DNA from: a virus
Virus record (IMG/VR): IMGVR_UViG_3300045988_127420
DNA length: 37,829 nt
Direction: 5' to 3' (one strand)
How positions within the stretch are numbered: position 1 is the stretch's first letter; each line of letters begins with the position of its first letter. The notes beneath the pieces are model-generated. The model was not told the origin of the DNA and ran no database searches. It saw only the letters and a program-made list of their open reading frames with translations. The translations under genes and the position numbers were made by a program. Below are positions 1 to 37,829 of the stretch, one piece after another.

Positions 1-111
1 GAGCGAGCCGCAGCAGAGCGAGCCGCAGCAGAGCGAGCCGCAGCAGAGCGAGCCGCAGCAGAGCGAGCCGCAGCAGAGCGAGCCGCAGCAGAGCGAGCCG
101 CAGCAGAGCGA
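1..111. repeat. Perfect 15-bp tandem repeat GAGCGAGCCGCAGCA (7 units plus GAGCGA); duplicate of 37719-37829 (contig-end overlap)
   Basis: Counted directly: 7 exact units then GAGCGA. The same 111 nt is found at 37719-37829. Confidence 0.95.
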
Positions 112-16066: not shown

Positions 16067-17281
16067 ATGGCAGACAGCGAAGTGAAGTACCCCATCATCA
16101 CCGACGACACGGGCCGCGCCATCGCGGGCGCGCTGCAGGCGCTGGCGCACGGCAAGGTGGCCGAGCTGAAGACCGACTGGGACGGGCTGGCGCGCATGAG
16201 CCGCGACGGCCTGGCGCCCTACGTGCTCGGCATCGGCGACCAGATCACTTCCAAGTGGACCGACCCGGACGGCGGCACCGCCTACGACGTGGCCAACGAC
16301 GTGTGCCACTTCCCCGCCGAGCTGGAGCTGCAGGACGGCGAGAAGCTGCCCGGCACCATCCTGCAGTGGCACTACACCCTGCCCTTCGGCACGCAGTTCG
16401 ACCAGAAGGAGGCCTTCTGGTACTGCGAGGCCGCGCTGACGGCCGGCACCTACAACCTGACCATGGGCGCCTCGTGGGGCACCAACGTGGTCAAGGGCAA
16501 GACCTACCAGTTCACGCTCGCCAAGGACGTGCCGAAGGGCGGCGTGCTGGCCGGCATGGAGTACGCGCCGGACCGCGACCCGGGCACGTGGCAGGTCAAG
16601 TCCTACAAGACCGTGAGCGACGCCGACCCCATCGAGACGGTGGGCATGAGCGAGGGCGCGCAGGGCACGAGCCTGGGCACCATCGGCACCAAGCCGGACG
16701 GCAACATGAACAGCATCTACCGCTGCGCCTACGGCTACAACCGCTGGAGCCAGTCCGCGCTGCGCCAGTACCTCAACGGCAAGGGCACGAACTGGTGGAA
16801 GCCGCAGAACAAGTGGGACCGCCCGCCGGAGTACGTCGGCAAGCACGGCTTCCTGGACGGCATCCCCGAGGCCGAGCTGGCCGTCATGCGCCGCGTGAAG
16901 GTCGTCACCGGCGTGCCCTACTGCGAGGAGGGCACCGACAGCGAGCCGGTGCTGGACACCACCTACGACCTCGTGTTCCTGCCGAGCATGGAGGAGCACT
17001 TCCTGGAGCTCGGCGAGTCCGGCATGAAGGGCAAGGAGGGCGAGGCGTGGGAGTACTGGGCGCGCGTCGCGCAGTCCCCGACGCCGCTGGCGCTGTGGCA
17101 GACGTGGCCGCAGCTGATCACGTACGCCATCAACGGCAAGACCAGCCCGCAGTACGTCTGGGCGCGTTCCGCTAATCGCGGCAACGGCAACTACACGTTC
17201 GTCGTGTACGCGTCGGGCGGCGTCGACGGCTACTACGGCGCGCAGTACGCGCTGCGCTGTGCTCCCGCCCGCGCCATCTAG
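16067..17281 (+). CDS. Receptor-binding tail protein; DGR target with C-terminal variable region (C-type-lectin/FGE-like fold inferred)
   Basis: 404 aa, the last tail gene. C-terminus ...YVWARSANRGNGNYTFVVYASGGVDGYYGAQYALRCAPARAI is repeated at nucleotide level 622 nt downstream, between avd and the RT. Confidence 0.8.
   Translation: MADSEVKYPIITDDTGRAIAGALQALAHGKVAELKTDWDGLARMSRDGLAPYVLGIGDQITSKWTDPDGGTAYDVANDVCHFPAELELQDGEKLPGTILQWHYTLPFGTQFDQKEAFWYCEAALTAGTYNLTMGASWGTNVVKGKTYQFTLAKDVPKGGVLAGMEYAPDRDPGTWQVKSYKTVSDADPIETVGMSEGAQGTSLGTIGTKPDGNMNSIYRCAYGYNRWSQSALRQYLNGKGTNWWKPQNKWDRPPEYVGKHGFLDGIPEAELAVMRRVKVVTGVPYCEEGTDSEPVLDTTYDLVFLPSMEEHFLELGESGMKGKEGEAWEYWARVAQSPTPLALWQTWPQLITYAINGKTSPQYVWARSANRGNGNYTFVVYASGGVDGYYGAQYALRCAPARAI
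17150..17275 (+). repeat. DGR variable repeat (VR)
   Basis: Hand alignment to 17772-17894. Differences cluster in codon positions 1-2 of N/Y/G/D/S/C codons. The 3' end is a GC-only tract (CCCGCCCGCGCC). Confidence 0.75.
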
Positions 17282-17297
17282 CCATCGATGCCAATCC

Positions 17298-17319
17298 GGG
17301 GCGGGCCACCGCCCGCCCC
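17298..17319 (+). promoter_or_regulatory. GC hairpin downstream of VR (candidate DGR target-recognition hairpin, possibly also a terminator)
   Basis: GGGGCGGGC-CACC-GCCCGCCCC: perfect 9-bp stem with a 4-nt loop, 16 nt after the stop codon. No T-tract follows. Confidence 0.6.
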
Positions 17320-17340
17320 CTGTTCGAAAAGGAGGCCGCT

Positions 17341-17751
17341 TTGTCGGTACCTAAAAGGTTGAGGAAGAAAAGCAAGCTCGAAGTGTTCGTGAACGCCTGC
17401 GACCTCGTGGAGTACGTGCTGAAGATCACGGCGAACGAGAAGGTGTTCAAGCCGGAGCAGTCCGCCGTCACGGACAAGATAAAGGCGGCGGCGCTCGACA
17501 TAGCGCGCTTCATATGGTGTGCCAACAGCATCCGCGTGCGCCAGGACGCGCAGCTGTACGCCGAGCGGCGCCGCCTGCAGGACATGGCCATGACGTGCTG
17601 CCGCGAGCTGCTTTTCCTCATCGACCTCGCATGGGACGTCATGCACCTGTCTGAGCGCCGAGCCGTCTACTGGGTCGGCAAGACAATGGACCTGCGAGAC
17701 GAGATAGCCGCATGGAGGGCATCCGACGCCAAGAGATACGGGCGTCTGTGA
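17341..17751 (+). CDS. avd: DGR accessory variability determinant (Avd-like four-helix-bundle protein)
   Basis: 136-aa basic, helical protein. TTG start 5 nt after AAAAGGAGG. Sits between the VR-bearing gene and TR/RT, as in the canonical cassette. Confidence 0.7.
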   Translation: MSVPKRLRKKSKLEVFVNACDLVEYVLKITANEKVFKPEQSAVTDKIKAAALDIARFIWCANSIRVRQDAQLYAERRRLQDMAMTCCRELLFLIDLAWDVMHLSERRAVYWVGKTMDLRDEIAAWRASDAKRYGRL

Positions 17752-17771
17752 TAGCCGGGGCCGCGGCTGTA

Positions 17772-17894
17772 CAGCGCGTCTGGACGCGGTCCGCTTATCG
17801 CTACTGCGGCTCCTGCACGTTCATCGTGTACGCGTCGGGCTACGTCAGCGGCTACAACGCGCAGTACGCGCTGCGCTGTGCTCCCGACCGAACC
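17772..17894 (+). repeat. DGR template repeat by position (TR); sequence is atypical, see findings
   Basis: 123 nt homologous to the VR, starting 21 nt after the avd stop and about 135 nt before the RT. The 3' end has A where the VR has C/C/G (GACCGAACC vs GCCCGCGCC). Confidence 0.65.
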
Positions 17895-18029
17895 GGCGAA
17901 AGCCCCACCGAAGCCTGCGGCGCAGCCGCGGAGCGGGGCGAAACCGGCGCGGGGAGCCGCGACCCCGAGCCCGAGAGGGCCGAACAACGCCGGGGCGACG
18001 CCGACGCGGCTGGAACGCGGGCGGCTATC

Positions 18030-19100
18030 GTGCGCCCCGGACCCACACCCGAACTGGAACCCGGCGAGCTGAACGGCGTCGTCGGGTTCTACGCCTTGAG
18101 GGAGAGCGCGAAGAAGTGCAGGCGCGGCGTCATATGGAAGGGCAGCGCCGCCAGCTACATGCTGAACCTGTCAGAGCGCACGCTGGCCATGAGCCGCAAG
18201 CTGCAGGCGGGCACGTTCAGGTGCGGGCCCACGCGGGAGTTCTACGTGACGAGGCCCAAGCGCCGCACCATCGTGAGCGTGGGCTTCGCCGACCGCGTGT
18301 TCCAGCGCAGCCTCAACGACAACAGCATCTACCCCCGCATGGTGCGCGGCTTCATATCGGACAACGCGGCATGCCGGAAGGGCAAGGGCACCGACTACGC
18401 CCGCGAGCGCCTGAAGGAGTTCATGCGCCGCCACTACCGCAAGAACGGGCCGAACGGCTGGGTATGCCAGATGGACGTGGCGGGCTACTACCCGAACATG
18501 CGGCACGAGACGGCCGAAGCGGCATTCGCCCGCAAGCTGCCGCCCGAGATCATGGCCATGGCCAGGGCGGTCATGCGGAACCAGTACCCGGGCGAGGTCG
18601 GCTACAACCCGGGCAGCCAGATGATACAGATAGCCGGCATCAGCGTGCTGGACCCGCTCGACCATATGGCGAAAGACCGCATGGGCATCAGGAACTACGT
18701 CAGGTACATGGACGACGCCGTGGCCATCTTAGCCACCCGCGAGGAGGCCGAGCGCGCCCTGGAAGCGTTCGGCGACACCCTGCATAACCTGGGTTTCGAG
18801 CTGAACCCCAAGAAGTCGTGCATCTACCCGCTGCGGGACGGCGTGCCGTTCCTGGGCTTCGACTTCCACCTGACCGACACGGGCAAGGTCCTCATGTTCG
18901 TGAAGCCGTCGAACGTCAAGGAGATGAGGCGGCGCATAGCGAAGATGGCGAGGCTGAGCCGCAAGGGGCGCATCATGCGCGCTGAAGTGGACGAGAGCTA
19001 CCGAGCATGGCGCAACCACGCGGGCAAGGGCGACAGCTTCAGGCTCATCAGGCGCTGCGACGCCTGGTACAAGGAACTATGGAAGGAGCACCGATGCTAG
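18030..19100 (+). CDS. DGR-type reverse transcriptase
   Basis: Motifs seen: RRTIVSVGFADRVFQ, NPGSQMIQ (DGR-typical SQ motif) and YVRYMDDAV (YxDD). The N-terminus aligns conceptually with Bordetella bRT (FYALRESAKKCRR...LQAGTFRCGPTREFYV). Start is uncertain: GTG 18030, CTG 18069 or ATG 18159. Confidence 0.88.
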   Translation: MRPGPTPELEPGELNGVVGFYALRESAKKCRRGVIWKGSAASYMLNLSERTLAMSRKLQAGTFRCGPTREFYVTRPKRRTIVSVGFADRVFQRSLNDNSIYPRMVRGFISDNAACRKGKGTDYARERLKEFMRRHYRKNGPNGWVCQMDVAGYYPNMRHETAEAAFARKLPPEIMAMARAVMRNQYPGEVGYNPGSQMIQIAGISVLDPLDHMAKDRMGIRNYVRYMDDAVAILATREEAERALEAFGDTLHNLGFELNPKKSCIYPLRDGVPFLGFDFHLTDTGKVLMFVKPSNVKEMRRRIAKMARLSRKGRIMRAEVDESYRAWRNHAGKGDSFRLIRRCDAWYKELWKEHRC

Positions 19101-26769: not shown

Positions 26770-28181
26770 TGGTGAAGATCGCATCGGTGGAGGCCGAGAA
26801 CGTCAAGCGCGTGAAGGCCGTGTACCTGGAGCCGAAGGCCGACGGGCTGACGGTCATAGGCGGCCGAAACGGCCAGGGCAAGACGAGCGTGCTGGACGCC
26901 ATCGCGTGGGCGCTCGGCGGCGACAAGATGCGCCCGAGCAACGCCAAGCGCGAGGACGCCGCCGGCGACCCGCAGCTGCGCGTGGTGCTGGACAACGGCA
27001 TCGTGGTGGAGCGCAAGGGCAAGAACAGCTCGCTGAAGGTCATCGACCCGAGCGGCAACAAGGGCGGCCAGCAGCTGCTGAACTCGTTCACCGAGCAGCT
27101 GGCCCTGAACCTGCCCAAGTTCATGCAGGCCAGCGACAGGGAGAAGGCCGAGACGCTGCTGTCCATCATGGGCGTCGGCGAGGAGCTGGCGGCCCTGGAC
27201 GCGCAGAAGCAGGCGGCCTACAACCAGCGCCTGGCCGTGGGCCAGATGGAGCGCCAGAAGCGGGGCGCGGCCAACGACATGCGGCACTGGCCGGACGCGC
27301 CGGCGCAGGAGGTGAGCGCGTCCGAGCTCATCGCCGAGCAGTCGGCCATCCTGGCGCGCAACGGCGAGAACCAGCGCAAGCGCATGGAGGCCCAGCAAGT
27401 CAAGGCGCGCCTGGACGCGGCCATGGGAGAGCTGGCGCGCATGAACGAGCAGAGCGCCGAGCTGGCGCGCCGCATGGCCGAGAAGTCGGCGGAGGTGGAG
27501 CGGCTGAGCGCCGACGCGGCCACCGCCGCCAAGACCGCCGAGCAGCTGCGCGACGAGTCCACCGCCGAGCTGGAGGAGCAGCTGCGCCAGGTCGAGGCCG
27601 TCAACGACAAGGTGCGCACCAACATGCGCCGCGCCGCCGCGATGGCCGAGGCCGACGAGCTGAAGGCTCAGTACGACGAGCTGGATGAGCGCGTGCGCGG
27701 CCTGCAGAAGGCCCGCACCGACCTGCTGCGCGGAGCGAAGCTGCCGCTGGAGGGGCTGACCGTGGAGTTCGACGCCAAGGGCGAGCCGCGCCTGGAGTAC
27801 CAGGGACAGCCGTGGGACTGCATGAGCGGCAGCGAGCAGCTGAAGGCGGCCACGGCCATCGTGCGCGAGCTGAAGCCGGAGTGCGGCTTCGTGCTGGTGG
27901 ACAAGCTTGAGCAGATGGACCCGCAGACGCTGGCCGAGTTCGGGCAGTGGGCCGAGGGCGAGGGCCTGCAGGTCATCGGCACCCGCGTGGGCACCGGCGG
28001 CGAGTGCAGCCTGGTCATCGAGGACGGGCGCGGGCAGCTGGGCGACCCCGAGGGAGACGAGGAGCGCATGGTGGCCGAAAGCCTCCGCGAGTGCGCGGCG
28101 GACAGCGGCTGCCCGGAGTGCACCATCCCGCACGACGGGGCGTGCGCGCCCGCGGCGGCGAAGGGCTGGGTGATTCAGTAA
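26769..28181 (+). CDS. SMC/SbcC/RecF-like AAA ATPase with central coiled coil
   Basis: Walker A GGRNGQGKTSVLDAI. Long coiled-coil middle. C-terminal LSGSEQ-like signature (MSGSEQLK) and a Walker B-like VLVDKLE. Confidence 0.65.
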   Translation: MVKIASVEAENVKRVKAVYLEPKADGLTVIGGRNGQGKTSVLDAIAWALGGDKMRPSNAKREDAAGDPQLRVVLDNGIVVERKGKNSSLKVIDPSGNKGGQQLLNSFTEQLALNLPKFMQASDREKAETLLSIMGVGEELAALDAQKQAAYNQRLAVGQMERQKRGAANDMRHWPDAPAQEVSASELIAEQSAILARNGENQRKRMEAQQVKARLDAAMGELARMNEQSAELARRMAEKSAEVERLSADAATAAKTAEQLRDESTAELEEQLRQVEAVNDKVRTNMRRAAAMAEADELKAQYDELDERVRGLQKARTDLLRGAKLPLEGLTVEFDAKGEPRLEYQGQPWDCMSGSEQLKAATAIVRELKPECGFVLVDKLEQMDPQTLAEFGQWAEGEGLQVIGTRVGTGGECSLVIEDGRGQLGDPEGDEERMVAESLRECAADSGCPECTIPHDGACAPAAAKGWVIQ

Positions 28182-29242
28182 TGGCCATCCAGATAACGCG
28201 AGGGGCCGCGCAGAAGCCCCAGAAAGTCGTGATCTATGGCGTCGAGGGCATCGGCAAGACGACGCTGGCCGCGCAGTTCCCCAACCCCCTGTTCGTCGAC
28301 ACCGAGGGCGGCACCGAGGGATACGACGTGGCCCGAACGCAGACCCCGCAGAGCTGGACGGCGCTCAAGGGCCTGCTGCGCGACGTGGCGGCGGAGCGCC
28401 CGTGCGGCACGCTGGTGCTCGACACCGCCGACTGGGCCGAGCGCCTGCTGTGCGCCGAGCTGTGCGCGCAGCACAAGTGGGACTCCATGGAGACGCTGGG
28501 CTTCGGCAAGTGCTGGCAGTTCGCACTGGAGGAGTTCGGCCGCATGCTCGACCTGCTCACCGACGTGCGCGACGCGGGCATGAACGTCGTGGTCACGGCG
28601 CACGCCATGGTCTCCAAGTTCGAGCAGCCCGACGAGGCCGCGAGCTACGACCGCTGGACCATGAAGATGTACAAGAAGGACGCCGCGCTGCTCAAGGAAT
28701 GGGCCGACGCGCTGCTGTTCGTCAACTACAAGACCATCGTGGAGATGGTCGGCGAGGGCTTCATGGCCAAGGGCAAGGCGCGCGGCGCCAAGCGCACGAT
28801 CTTCTGCACGCACCAGGCCACGTGGGACGCGAAGAACCGCTGGGGACTTCCCGACGAGGTGCCGCTGGGCTACGAGGCCATAGCGCCGCACGTGCCGAGC
28901 CTCGGGACCGACCCGCGCGTGCCCGCCCCCGCCCCGCAGGCGCGGCCCATGCCGCAGCCCCAAGCCAAGCCCGCCCCGCAGGCGCAGGGCGACGCGCCTG
29001 GGACCATCGCCGCGAAGAAGGGGCTGCCCGCGTTCTGGGCACCCGCCTGCGAGCTGATGGAGCGAGACGGCGTGAGCCTGGCCGAGGTGCTGAACTTCGC
29101 GGTGCTGCAGGGCCACTTCACGCCCGACACGCCGCCCGAGGCGTACCCGCCCGACTACATCGCCGGGCTGATCGTGCCGCAGTGGGAGACGGTGAAGGCC
29201 AAGGTGGCCGAGTACCGCGGCGGCGAGGACATCCCCTTCTAA
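28181..29242 (+). CDS. AAA_24 / Sak4-like recombination ATPase
   Basis: KVVIYGVEGIGKTTLAAQFPNPLFVDTEGG. Followed by a DUF669-like gene, which is the usual pairing. Confidence 0.65.
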   Translation: MAIQITRGAAQKPQKVVIYGVEGIGKTTLAAQFPNPLFVDTEGGTEGYDVARTQTPQSWTALKGLLRDVAAERPCGTLVLDTADWAERLLCAELCAQHKWDSMETLGFGKCWQFALEEFGRMLDLLTDVRDAGMNVVVTAHAMVSKFEQPDEAASYDRWTMKMYKKDAALLKEWADALLFVNYKTIVEMVGEGFMAKGKARGAKRTIFCTHQATWDAKNRWGLPDEVPLGYEAIAPHVPSLGTDPRVPAPAPQARPMPQPQAKPAPQAQGDAPGTIAAKKGLPAFWAPACELMERDGVSLAEVLNFAVLQGHFTPDTPPEAYPPDYIAGLIVPQWETVKAKVAEYRGGEDIPF

Positions 29243-37052: not shown

Positions 37053-37829
37053 ATGGCCAAGGGCGAGACTTACGAGCAGTTCGTGGAGAAGTTCAGGGTG
37101 AAGAAGACCACCGACGACTGCTACACGCCGCCGCTGGTCTACGAGGCCGTCAAGGGCTGGGCGTGCCGCGAGTACGGCATCGACCCGGCCCGCGTCGTTC
37201 GCCCCTTCTGGCCCGGCGGCGACTACGAGCGCTTCGAGTACCCGGAGGGCTGCGCGGTCATCGACAACCCGCCGTTCTCCATCCTGTCGGCCATCTGCGC
37301 GTTCTACATCGACCGCGGCGTGCCGTTCCTCCTTTTCGCGCCGAGCCTGACGTGCCTGGGCGGCGCGAGCGTGTGCATGCGCATGAACCACCTCATCACC
37401 GACTGCGCCGTGGTGTACGAGAACGGCGCCGAGGTGCGCACCTCGTTCGTCACGAACATGGGCGGCGGCGAGTACGTGATGCAGAGCGCGCCGCGGCTCA
37501 CCCGCGAGGTCAACGCCGCCATCGAGGCGAGCCGCGAGCGCAGGACCGTGCCGCGATACGAGTACCCCTACGAGGTGGCCACGGCGGCCATGCTGCAGCG
37601 CTATGCCAAGTACGGCGTGGAGTTCGGCGTGCGCCGCGACGAGTGCGTGCGCATCGCCGCGCTGGACATGCAGCGCGACCAGGGCAAGGCGATATTCGGC
37701 GGCGGACTCCTGCTGGGCGAGCGAGCCGCAGCAGAGCGAGCCGCAGCAGAGCGAGCCGCAGCAGAGCGAGCCGCAGCAGAGCGAGCCGCAGCAGAGCGAG
37801 CCGCAGCAGAGCGAGCCGCAGCAGAGCGA
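37053..37829 (+). CDS. Putative DNA N6-adenine methyltransferase (DNPPF motif) with C-terminal (ERAAA)n repeat; continues at 1-162
   Basis: TDDCYTPP... and AVIDNPPFS (motif IV-like). The ORF runs off the window end inside the repeat, in the same phase as frame 1 at the window start. Confidence 0.6.
   Translation, partial: MAKGETYEQFVEKFRVKKTTDDCYTPPLVYEAVKGWACREYGIDPARVVRPFWPGGDYERFEYPEGCAVIDNPPFSILSAICAFYIDRGVPFLLFAPSLTCLGGASVCMRMNHLITDCAVVYENGAEVRTSFVTNMGGGEYVMQSAPRLTREVNAAIEASRERRTVPRYEYPYEVATAAMLQRYAKYGVEFGVRRDECVRIAALDMQRDQGKAIFGGGLLLGERAAAERAAAERAAAERAAAERAAAERAAAERAAAER
37719..37829. repeat. 15-bp tandem repeat GAGCGAGCCGCAGCA (7 units plus GAGCGA); duplicate of 1-111
   Basis: Counted directly and identical to the window start. 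Confidence 0.95.

What the first reader, a model, noticed from the sequence alone, without database searches (positions are those of the whole stretch)
17150..17894. TR and VR both look already diversified: the mismatch pattern is not adenine-specific
Hand alignment (offset 622, then 619 after a 3-nt GGC insertion at VR 17237-17239) gives 21 substitutions.
- Only 9 lie at adenines of the TR-position copy: 17784, 17803, 17823, 17842, 17847, 17856, 17887, 17891, 17892.
- Twelve lie at non-A positions of that copy.
- At 8 of those twelve it is the VR that carries the A: 17154, 17174, 17183, 17184, 17189, 17190, 17193, 17226.

The codon pairs (VR|TR) are TAC|CGC, AAT|TAT, GGC|TAC, AAC|TGC, AAC|TCC, TAC|TGC, GGC|TAC, GAC|AGC and TAC|AAC. 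Each pair has positions 1-2 variable and position 3 fixed. That is what two independent adenine-mutagenised copies of AAC/AAT codons would look like.

The copy sitting where the template should be keeps only one AAC codon. Possible explanations:
- the template itself was overwritten, by self-homing or by VR-to-TR gene conversion
- a pristine AAC-rich TR exists elsewhere or has been lost
- this is a decaying DGR

A template that has consumed its own adenines would be an unusual state for a DGR.
Basis: seen in the sequence. Interest (0 to 1): 0.8.

Follow-up and report, generated by a model that had tools for sequence, protein, structure and literature searches.

The report
DGR template overwritten by own mutagenesis
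In this Collinsella gut phage, the master template of a protein-diversifying retroelement, which is supposed never to change, has itself been scrambled at its adenines, and related phages show that this happens repeatedly in nature.

Summary
Software alignment gives the same 21 substitutions: 9 at TR adenines and 12 at non-A positions, 8 of which have the A in the VR.

The cassette is a complete DGR (target gene, avd, TR, RT) in a complete 37.7-kb temperate phage. The genome holds no third copy.

- **Relatives.** 33 related cassettes from Collinsella genomes and gut metagenomes carry a pristine AAC-rich TR at this position, apart from three changed sites in L009. Their TR/VR differences are 97% at adenines.
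- **Window VR.** Against that pristine TR, the window VR is a canonical product: every substitution is at an A, and it has one extra codon in the AAC run.
- **Window TR.** It differs from the pristine TR at 20 sites, 19 of them adenines.
- **Clustering.** The changes lie in 17770-17865, with only 2 private changes in the flanking 1 kb. One lies 5 nt outside the VR homology.
- **Assemblies.** The sequence is identical in two independent assemblies.

The template was therefore overwritten by an adenine-mutagenised copy. The most likely donor is its own cDNA (self-homing). VR-to-TR gene conversion is the main rival.

Mining RT-ORF proteins found 11 other eroded TR alleles among 126 distinct sequences. 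This natural behaviour appears undescribed.

The parts
16067..17281 (+). DGR target gene: a 404-aa tail-module protein with a C-terminal DUF6273 domain that carries the VR.
   Evidence: ORF. Pfam DUF6273, E=2.4e-8. It follows the BppU_N-type and tail genes.
17150..17276 (+). Variable repeat (VR). It is a canonical adenine-mutagenised copy of an L002-type pristine TR.
   Evidence: Against the pristine TR of L002 there are 19 substitutions, all at TR adenines. The count is 16/16 within columns 15-120.
17237..17239 (+). Extra codon in the VR. The VR has five NNC codons where the T1-type TR has four AAC. Placement within the run is ambiguous.
   Evidence: AAC-run length also varies in relatives: the L017 TR has 5 AAC and its VR has 4. 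Indels opposite AAC repeats are known (Wu 2018).
17240..17281 (+). A 3' GC-rich block identical to the TR (17240-17267), followed by IMH-type divergence (GCCCGCGCC versus TR GACCGAACC) and the stop codon.
   Evidence: The IMH-type sequence is the same in all relatives' VRs.
17298..17319 (+). GC hairpin downstream of the VR, with a 9-bp stem and a 4-nt loop. This is the cruciform-type target element.
   Evidence: strand folding centroid structure. Its role is known from Guo 2011.
17341..17751 (+). avd, the accessory variability determinant (136 aa). It carries a private N63S change (17528 A>G).
   Evidence: PHROG 3206 'Avd protein of DGR', E=2.8e-13. Residue 63 is N/D/E in the 34 other sequences carrying this motif and S only here.
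17770..17865 (+). The tract of the template that has been adenine-mutagenised. It holds 20 window-private changes, 19 at adenines and one T>G at 17789. The change at 17770 lies in the TR-specific 5' flank.
   Evidence: 20 private differences here versus 2 in the other 1023 nt. Fisher P=1e-20 and binomial P=2e-10 for 19 of 20 at A.
17772..17895 (+). TR-position repeat (the eroded template), including the intact IMH*-type 3' end (GACCGAACC, 17886-17894).
   Evidence: The 3' end is identical to the pristine T1-type TRs.
17896..18002 (+). Spacer between the TR and the RT-homologous region. This is presumably the part of the DGR RNA that primes cDNA synthesis.
   Evidence: Position only, by analogy with BPP-1. 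There are no private changes except shared polymorphisms.
18003..19100 (+). DGR reverse transcriptase with the YMDD motif. Gene callers extend the ORF to 17712, reading through the TR in frame.
   Evidence: RVT_1. PHROG 1423, E=1.6e-75. The best solved structure is 8ub7_A, E=7e-18. The protein is 100% identical to L009.
27947..29242 (+). Sak4-like single-strand annealing protein of the phage, with homology from about 28178. It is a candidate helper for cDNA annealing at the TR. That role is an inference, not a result.
   Evidence: PHROG 124, E=1.1e-55.

Best explanation
The locus is a canonical phage DGR (target-avd-TR-RT) in a temperate Collinsella siphophage. Its ancestor had the AAC-rich TR still present in sister phages.

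Inferred sequence of events:
1. The VR was last written from that pristine TR by ordinary mutagenic homing.
2. Later, an adenine-mutagenised cDNA made from the TR RNA was incorporated into the TR DNA itself instead of the VR (template self-homing, or retro-conversion).
3. That replaced a tract of 96 to about 134 nt (17770-17865 at minimum) and removed 19 of 37 adenines.
4. Incorporation probably used homology only. It was perhaps assisted by the phage's Sak4-like annealing protein or by host recombination, because the IMH*-type end and flanks of the TR are unchanged.
5. No homing into the VR has occurred since. The two repeats now look like two independent VRs.

Shown: both repeats are independent A-specific derivatives of the pristine TR; the changes are private, clustered and real. 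Inferred: the donor was cDNA rather than VR DNA; the SSAP is involved; it was one event rather than several.
For: - **Relatives.** Their TR/VR differences are A-specific: 415/429 in 28 distinct pairs, with 46% of adenines substituted per VR.
- **Window TR against pristine T1.** 19/20 differences are at A, which is 51% of the adenines. The spectrum (T10, G7, C2) is not distinguishable from the family VR spectrum (p=0.12). It therefore looks like the product of one round of DGR mutagenesis.
- **Clustering.** There are 20 private changes in 96 nt and 2 in 1023 nt of flanks.
- **Flank change.** 17770 A>T lies 5 nt outside the VR/TR homology, in CTGAACAG. That motif is invariant in 33 relatives' DNA. 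The encoded Glu is unchanged in all but one of the other 125 RT-ORF proteins. cDNA is known to run past the 5' end of the TR into avd.
- **Resident VR is not the donor.** It shows 12 non-A mismatches with the TR and is a clean product of the pristine TR.
- **Assemblies.** The sequence is identical in the ENA MEGAHIT contig and the Logan contig.
- **Synthetic precedent.** In synthetic DGRs, TR-cDNA recombines into 'the TR itself' when an SSAP is supplied, and this depletes adenines. This phage encodes a Sak4-like SSAP.
- **Other lineages.** Some eroded TRs do not share their eroded bases with their own VR: L063, L067, L072.
Against: - No read-level or experimental evidence is available.
- The flank argument rests on one site. 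The chance of a background private mutation within 10 nt of the boundary is about 0.02, estimated from the rate.
- The TR target features (IMH*, no hairpin) are unchanged, so the canonical homing machinery should not recognise the TR.
- In at least one relative (L070) the TR and VR are almost verbatim identical across the eroded tract: 1 of 13 remaining adenines differ. That looks like DNA-level VR/TR conversion, so that route exists in the family.
- Two of the eroded sites (T at 17802 and 17805) are shared with L009. The erosion may therefore have accumulated in steps rather than in one event.
Confidence: 0.6

Rival explanations
1. Ectopic gene conversion. A diversified VR allele, from a sibling or co-infecting genome or from an earlier state, was copied at the DNA level into the TR by homologous recombination. 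The 17770 A>T and 17789 T>G changes are unrelated point mutations.
For: The VR and TR share 120 nt of homology 622 nt apart. In six relatives 40 of 41 eroded TR bases are identical to their own VR. In L070 the remaining adenines are also nearly all identical (1/13 changed), as expected for a verbatim DNA copy. The IMH* end being untouched is compatible with a tract confined to the homologous core.
Against: - The resident VR cannot be the donor, given 12 non-A mismatches.
- The VR cannot have been rewritten afterwards from the eroded TR. A second genome, or an extra recombination event, is therefore needed.
- 17770 lies outside the homology and is otherwise invariant.
- Most shared-base cases (L069, L074, L075) show about 50% of remaining adenines changed in the VR. 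That is what mutagenic homing from an already eroded TR gives.
Confidence: 0.25
2. Assembly artefact. VR-variant reads were threaded between TR flanks in a mixed population.
For: The source is metagenomic. The VR and TR share a 28-nt and a 17-nt identical block.
Against: - The same TR and VR occur with 0 mismatches over 6.6-7.2 kb in contigs from two different assemblers.
- The TR copy carries changes that no VR read could supply: 17770 in the TR-only flank, and 17789 G.
- The only k-mer shared at the 5' junction is CAG.
- Other eroded TR alleles recur in many cohorts, for example P0006 on 11 contigs.
Confidence: 0.03
3. Ordinary mutational decay of an unused template, or another adenine-directed process such as deamination.
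For: Theory predicts loss of TR adenines when diversification is not selected. A sister lineage (L001) has deleted avd and the TR outright.
Against: - There are 20 private changes in 96 nt against 2 in 1023 nt of neighbouring sequence, and 19/20 are at A.
- The changes are mostly A>T and A>G, with some A>C, which is not a deaminase signature.
- TR divergence among 18 other alleles is not A-biased, and the AAC codons are conserved.
Confidence: 0.02

Closest known systems
Bordetella phage BPP-1 DGR (mtd-avd-TR-brt), the reference mutagenic-homing cassette
   Same: - The order is target gene, then avd, TR and RT.
- The VR sits at the C-terminal end of a tail protein.
- The TR is AAC-rich in relatives, and TR-to-VR changes are A-specific.
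- The identical GC-rich 3' block is followed by IMH/IMH*-type divergence.
- A GC hairpin with a 4-nt loop lies after the VR.
   Different: In BPP-1 the TR 'remains unchanged throughout the process' (Guo 2011). Here the TR has lost 19 adenines. The target domain is DUF6273 and has no sequence-detectable solved relative.
Engineered TR homing in BPP-1 by replacing IMH* with IMH (Doulatov et al. 2004, Nature; recalled from memory, not read here)
   Same: The TR becomes a recipient of adenine-mutagenised sequence.
   Different: Here the IMH*-type end is intact and identical to pristine relatives. Loss of directionality signals does not explain the event.
Recombineering-coupled synthetic DGRs in E. 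coli (DGRec and related work; bioRxiv 10.1101/2025.03.24.644984, 10.64898/2026.06.12.731847, 10.64898/2026.07.21.739853)
   Same: TR-cDNA recombines into 'the TR itself'. The template drifts and adenines are preferentially eliminated. An SSAP is present, and the window phage encodes a Sak4-like one.
   Different: Those systems are artificial, overexpressing CspRecT plus dominant-negative MutL. Their authors contrast them with natural DGRs. Here the event is natural, and SSAP involvement is only inferred.
DGRs with non-A-to-N TR/VR differences in genomic surveys (Wu et al. 2018, PMC5758913; atypical-bias DGRs in Roux et al., bioRxiv 10.1101/2020.04.01.020958)
   Same: There are many non-A mismatches between TR and VR. 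Wu et al. report these in 23% of DGRs, with a maximum of 11 in one target. Indels opposite AAC are also reported there.
   Different: Those were attributed to RT infidelity, integration errors or independent mutation. Here orthologous TRs show that the template changed, and that it changed at adenines.

Membership tests
Diversity-generating retroelement (DGR) | Reverse transcriptase of the DGR type next to the repeats | tested here: met
   RVT_1. PHROG 1423, E=1.6e-75. The best solved-structure match is 8ub7_A, a 328-aa reverse transcriptase, E=7e-18, with YMDD aligned. No curated DGR-specific model was available in NCBIfam.
Diversity-generating retroelement (DGR) | Near-repeat pair, with one copy (VR) at the 3' end of a target gene and the other (TR) non-coding next to the RT | tested here: met
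   VR 17150-17276 lies inside ORF 16067-17281. The TR 17772-17895 lies between avd and the RT.
Diversity-generating retroelement (DGR) | TR/VR mismatches confined to TR adenines | tested here: not met
   In the window only 9 of 21 substitutions are at TR adenines. The feature is met in 28 relatives (415/429). It is also met when the window VR is compared with the orthologous pristine TR (19/19). The failure is therefore due to secondary change of the TR, not to a different mechanism.
Diversity-generating retroelement (DGR) | Accessory protein Avd | tested here: met
   PHROG 3206 'Avd protein of DGR', E=2.8e-13. There was no Pfam or NCBIfam hit.
Diversity-generating retroelement (DGR) | IMH/IMH* asymmetry and a GC-rich inverted repeat downstream of the VR | tested here: met
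   A 28-nt identical GC-rich block is followed by GCCCGCGCC (VR) versus GACCGAACC (TR). A 9-bp GC hairpin with a 4-nt loop lies at 17298-17319. Function was not tested.
Diversity-generating retroelement (DGR) | Template repeat is invariant (unidirectional information flow) | tested here: not met
   The window TR has 19 adenine substitutions relative to orthologous TRs. A further 11 distinct eroded TR alleles occur among 126 family RT-ORF sequences.
Diversity-generating retroelement (DGR) | Ongoing diversification of the VR in the population | not testable with these tools
   No reads are available. The same VR is present in four assemblies. Sister phages with an identical pristine TR (L002, L012, L024, L028) all have different VRs.

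The most novel reading that the evidence does not exclude
Natural DGRs are not strictly unidirectional. In this Coriobacteriia phage family the mutagenic cDNA recurrently re-enters the template itself. The patches often lie in the 5' half of the TR, the opposite of the 3'-anchored polarity described for VR homing in BPP-1. Templates therefore evolve in jumps by their own mutagenesis. This either re-bases the accessible sequence space while the DGR stays active, or burns out the adenines and freezes the receptor-binding protein.
Probability: 0.5. Interest if true: 0.8.

Novelty: new variant of a known kind. Interest (0 to 1): 0.7.

Why it matters
DGR biology and current evolutionary models assume that the TR is a protected master copy changing only by background mutation. 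Template drift has been treated as a defect of synthetic systems, 'unlike natural DGR systems'.

A natural lineage has lost half its template adenines in a 96-nt tract. In addition, roughly one in ten distinct TR alleles in the family shows adenine erosion. Together these have four consequences:
- Template protection is leaky in nature.
- There is a fast route for DGR inactivation or re-programming.
- Some of the 'non-A-to-N' DGRs in surveys may be explained this way.
- Collinsella lysogens with pristine and eroded TRs offer an experimental system for studying how IMH* and recombination functions keep cDNA out of the template.

There is also a practical point for DGR finders. Cassettes like this one fail A-bias filters although they are genuine DGRs.

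Tried and rejected
- **Third AAC-rich copy in the window.** None was found by exact or mismatch pattern searches, or by sensitive local alignment on both strands. The window is a closed circular genome.
- **GenBank phage collection.** Megablast of the cassette found no match.
- **Shared 27-mer in IMG/VR.** No hit, so the window contig itself is not there.
- **TR-specific 3' flank pattern in IMG/VR.** This returned the known relatives plus unrelated chance matches only.
- **A-biased divergence among ordinary TR alleles.** Not seen in the first 18 alleles. The erosion signal appeared only when RT-ORF proteins were mined.
- **Eroded TR as an N-terminal extension of the RT.** The frame is open through the TR in most relatives but broken in L029, L037, L039 and L040. 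I treat it as a gene-calling by-product of high GC.
- **Derivation of the window TR from the L009 TR state.** Rejected, because AGT to TAT needs a G>A change.
- **Partial rewriting of the VR 3' end from the eroded TR.** Rejected. It needs a codon insertion at a single AAC. Agreement at 6 of the 9 sites mutated in both copies (hand count from the difference lists) is within chance, by my hand calculation with the family mutation spectrum (P about 0.075).
- **Solved-structure search with the target protein.** No hit.
Full report
**Observation.**
- A local alignment gives offset 622, then 619 after a 3-nt gap.
- It gives 21 substitutions up to 17273/17892.
- Nine are at TR adenines and twelve at non-A TR positions.
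- At eight of the twelve the VR carries the A, at exactly the coordinates listed.
- The repeat finder reports the same pair.
- The conserved blocks occur twice and nowhere else.
- A sensitive alignment of a pristine relative TR to both strands of the window finds no third copy.

**Anatomy.** The window is a complete, circularly closed temperate siphophage genome of about 37.7 kb. It starts and ends in the same 15-nt tandem array, with a 111-nt overlap.

| Feature | Coordinates | Evidence |
|---|---|---|
| Portal, capsid, tail, tape-measure and tail-tip genes | upstream of 16067 | |
| Target gene (DUF6273 C-terminal domain) | 16067-17281 | |
| VR, last 40 codons of the target | 17150-17276 | |
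| GC hairpin, 9-bp stem and 4-nt loop | 17298-17319 | |
| avd (PHROG 'Avd protein of DGR') | 17341-17751 | |
| TR-position repeat | 17772-17895 | |
| Spacer | 17896-18002 | position only |
| RT (RVT_1; PHROG 1423; best solved relative 8ub7_A) | 18003-19100 | |
| Lysis genes, serine integrase, repressor, replication/recombination module | downstream of 19100 | |

The replication/recombination module includes a Sak4-like single-strand annealing protein. This is the canonical target-avd-TR-RT layout.

**Relatives.** Searching with the RT recovered related cassettes from three sources:
- IMG/VR.
- GTDB genomes. All close hits are Collinsella, including cultured C. aerofaciens strains.
- Gut metagenomes.

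All 33 TR-position copies from these loci are AAC-rich and highly conserved. The exception is L009, which has three changed sites.

In 28 distinct TR/VR pairs, 415 of 429 differences lie at TR adenines. On average 46% of TR adenines are substituted per VR. Phages with an identical pristine TR (L002, L012, L024, L028) all have different VRs. The family is therefore an ordinary, active DGR family.

**What happened in the window.**
- *VR against the pristine T1-type TR (L002, L012, L024, L028, L029).* There are 19 substitutions, all at adenines, plus one extra NNC codon inside the 4x AAC run.
- *AAC-run length.* It also varies in relatives: the L017 TR has five AAC and its VR has four. Indels opposite AAC repeats are known (Wu 2018).
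- *TR against the same pristine TR.* There are 20 differences, 19 at adenines and one T>G at 17789.
- *Extent.* 51% of the adenines are substituted. The spectrum (T10, G7, C2) is not distinguishable from the family's VR spectrum.

**The TR change is a discrete event, not decay.** I compared 1119 nt around the TR with seven close relatives. The window has 20 private differences inside 17770-17865 and only two elsewhere, at 17528 and 18091. Fisher's test gives P=1e-20.

The 3' limit lies between 17866 and 17886. That stretch has no adenines, and the IMH*-type adenines at 17887, 17891 and 17892 are untouched.

The 5'-most change, 17770 A>T, lies in the TR-specific flank CTGAACAG, 5 nt beyond the point where VR homology ends. 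That flank is invariant in 33 relatives' DNA. The Glu it encodes in the called ORF is unchanged in all but one of the other 125 family proteins.

**The sequence is not an artefact.** The 462-aa ORF that reads through the eroded TR, and the 404-aa target protein, occur on an ENA MEGAHIT contig (ERZ27272197, 37,784 bp). They also occur on a Logan contig (SRR3993055). Both show 0 mismatches to the window over 7.2 and 6.6 kb. The same VR is present on two further short contigs.

**Family-wide erosion.** Gene callers read through the TR in frame, so protein databases record TR states.
- Among 126 distinct family RT-ORF sequences, 107 have 13-14 Asn codons in the TR peptide, 6 have 12, and 13 have 11 or fewer.
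- Those 13 sequences are 12 distinct TR alleles, counting the window.
- The window and P0006 are the extremes, with one Asn left.
- P0006 is on 11 contigs from several cohorts.
- DNA of eight eroded lineages shows changes almost only at adenines of the nearest pristine allele.

The eroded lineages fall into two classes:
- *Class 1.* The eroded bases are absent from the lineage's own VR (window, L063/P0006, L067/P0015, L072/P0175).
- *Class 2.* They are shared with the own VR, 40 of 41 sites (L009, L069, L070, L073, L074, L075).

In class 2, L069, L074 and L075 have about half of the remaining adenines changed in the VR. That is expected for normal homing from an already eroded TR. In L070 the TR and VR are nearly verbatim (1 of 13), which suggests DNA-level conversion.

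Partial erosions lie mostly in the 5' half of the TR (L009, L067, L072, L073, L074). In BPP-1, mutagenesis in the VR has a fixed 3' boundary at the IMH and a less precise 5' boundary set by homology (Wu 2018). T>G is the commonest non-A change both in family VRs (5 of 14) and in eroded TRs (the window, L070 and L074).

**Mechanism.** The best explanation is that a mutagenised TR cDNA was incorporated into the TR DNA itself.
- cDNA is known to run past the TR 5' end into avd. This explains 17770.
- The resident VR cannot be the donor. It also could not have been regenerated from the eroded TR.
- In synthetic DGRs, supplying an SSAP makes TR-cDNA recombine into 'the TR itself' and depletes adenines. 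The phage has its own Sak4-like SSAP.
- The TR's IMH*-type end and flanks are unchanged relative to pristine relatives. The event was therefore probably homology-driven and off-pathway, not a loss of directionality signals.
- The steps from cDNA to integration are inferred, not shown.

The main rival is VR-to-TR gene conversion from a VR allele that is no longer present. It needs a second genome or a later replacement of the VR, plus an independent mutation at 17770. Assembly error, ordinary decay and deamination are rejected for the reasons given above.

**State of the element.**
- The RT protein is identical to that of L009.
- avd is intact but has one private change, N63S.
- The VR has not been rewritten since the erosion and is identical in four assemblies.
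- The eroded TR keeps 17 adenines, so it could still diversify a smaller set of positions.
- A sister lineage (L001, RT 98% identical) has deleted avd and the TR outright.

Whether the window element is dying or merely re-based cannot be told from sequence.

**Comparison with what is known.**
- The cassette is a DGR by every feature except two: A-restricted mismatches and template invariance. Both fail because the template changed.
- TR mutagenesis is known when IMH* is swapped for IMH. This is Doulatov 2004, recalled from memory.
- It is also known in recombineering-coupled synthetic DGRs.
- Reviews and models treat the natural TR as unchanged or slowly evolving.
- Surveys attributed non-A mismatches to RT infidelity.
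- Four full-text searches found no description of natural TR self-erosion. The library is incomplete, so this is absence of evidence only.

**Limits.**
- There is no read-level data.
- The frequency estimate comes from distinct sequences listed per cluster, not a random sample.
- The nearest pristine allele was chosen to minimise non-A differences.
- The polarity observation rests on about nine lineages.

Noticed in passing
L001:3895-3960 (IMGVR_UViG_3300045988_121423): This sister phage (RT 98% identical) has only the VR. The 5' arm of the VR hairpin is fused directly to the TR-RT spacer at a GCGGG microhomology, deleting avd and the TR (about 620 nt). It is a DGR remnant with an intact RT.
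   Followed up: partly
L009:3137-3270 (IMGVR_UViG_3300045988_103641): The 5' end of the VR (GTGTTCCTG) is of the L007 sublineage, while the rest matches its own L002-type TR. This is a natural example of module shuffling followed by partial, 3'-anchored homing. Its TR has three eroded sites (AGT, TAC, TAC) that are shared with its VR.
   Followed up: partly
L017:3767-3895 (Collinsella sp. CLA-ER-H10 isolate) and window 17225-17239: The length of the AAC run is polymorphic. The L017 TR has five AAC and its VR four. The window VR has five NNC codons and its TR four.
   Followed up: partly
L063-L066 (P0006 lineage; ERR12023608, SAMN11274021, SAMEA10031098, SRR9690642): This is a second almost fully eroded TR, with about 16-19 A changes. 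Its VR belongs to a different TR sublineage (GTCTGGGCG type versus GTGTTCCTT). That VR is identical in the three of these contigs that include it, so it was never rewritten by this TR. The lineage is circulating with an uncoupled, frozen DGR.
   Followed up: partly
window 17789; L070, L074 TRs; L069 VR: T>G is the recurrent non-adenine change. It appears in three eroded TRs and is the commonest non-A class in family VRs (5 of 14). The L069 VR has it at the same CGT>CGG site as the window TR. This may be a misincorporation hot spot of this RT.
   Followed up: partly
window 17712-19100: The RT reading frame is open through the spacer and the TR, in the TR's own codon frame. Gene callers therefore annotate a 459-463-aa 'RT' whose first ~100 residues are TR and spacer. 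The frame is broken in L029, L037, L039 and L040, so the extension is probably not real. It does make TR states searchable in protein databases.
   Followed up: partly
window 17528: A private A>G change gives Avd N63S, next to the conserved W-C-A-N motif. The 34 other sequences carrying this motif have N (26), D (5) or E (3). Apart from the TR tract, it is one of only two private changes in the 1.1 kb examined.
   Followed up: partly
window 1-111 and 37719-37829: A perfect 15-nt tandem array (GAGCGAGCCGCAGCA, 7.4 copies) lies at both ends of the window, between the terminase and portal genes. The circular assembly was closed inside it, so the true copy number is unknown.
   Followed up: partly
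L037:1942-2065 (ERZ1643250 contig, coverage 2.5): The TR lacks about 20 nt at its 3' end, including the GC-rich block before IMH*. This is either a real deletion that would disable homing or a low-coverage error.
   Followed up: no
window 27947-29242: A Sak4-like single-strand annealing protein lies in the replication module, next to SbcC-like, helicase and primase genes. It is relevant as a possible helper for cDNA annealing. I did not check whether pristine-TR relatives also carry it.
   Followed up: no
cluster members P0123, P0178, P0191: RT-ORFs at least 90% identical to family representatives are annotated in Eggerthella lenta, Senegalimassilia and 'Coriobacteriaceae bacterium' records. 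The phage group seems to span several Coriobacteriia genera, not only Collinsella.
   Followed up: no
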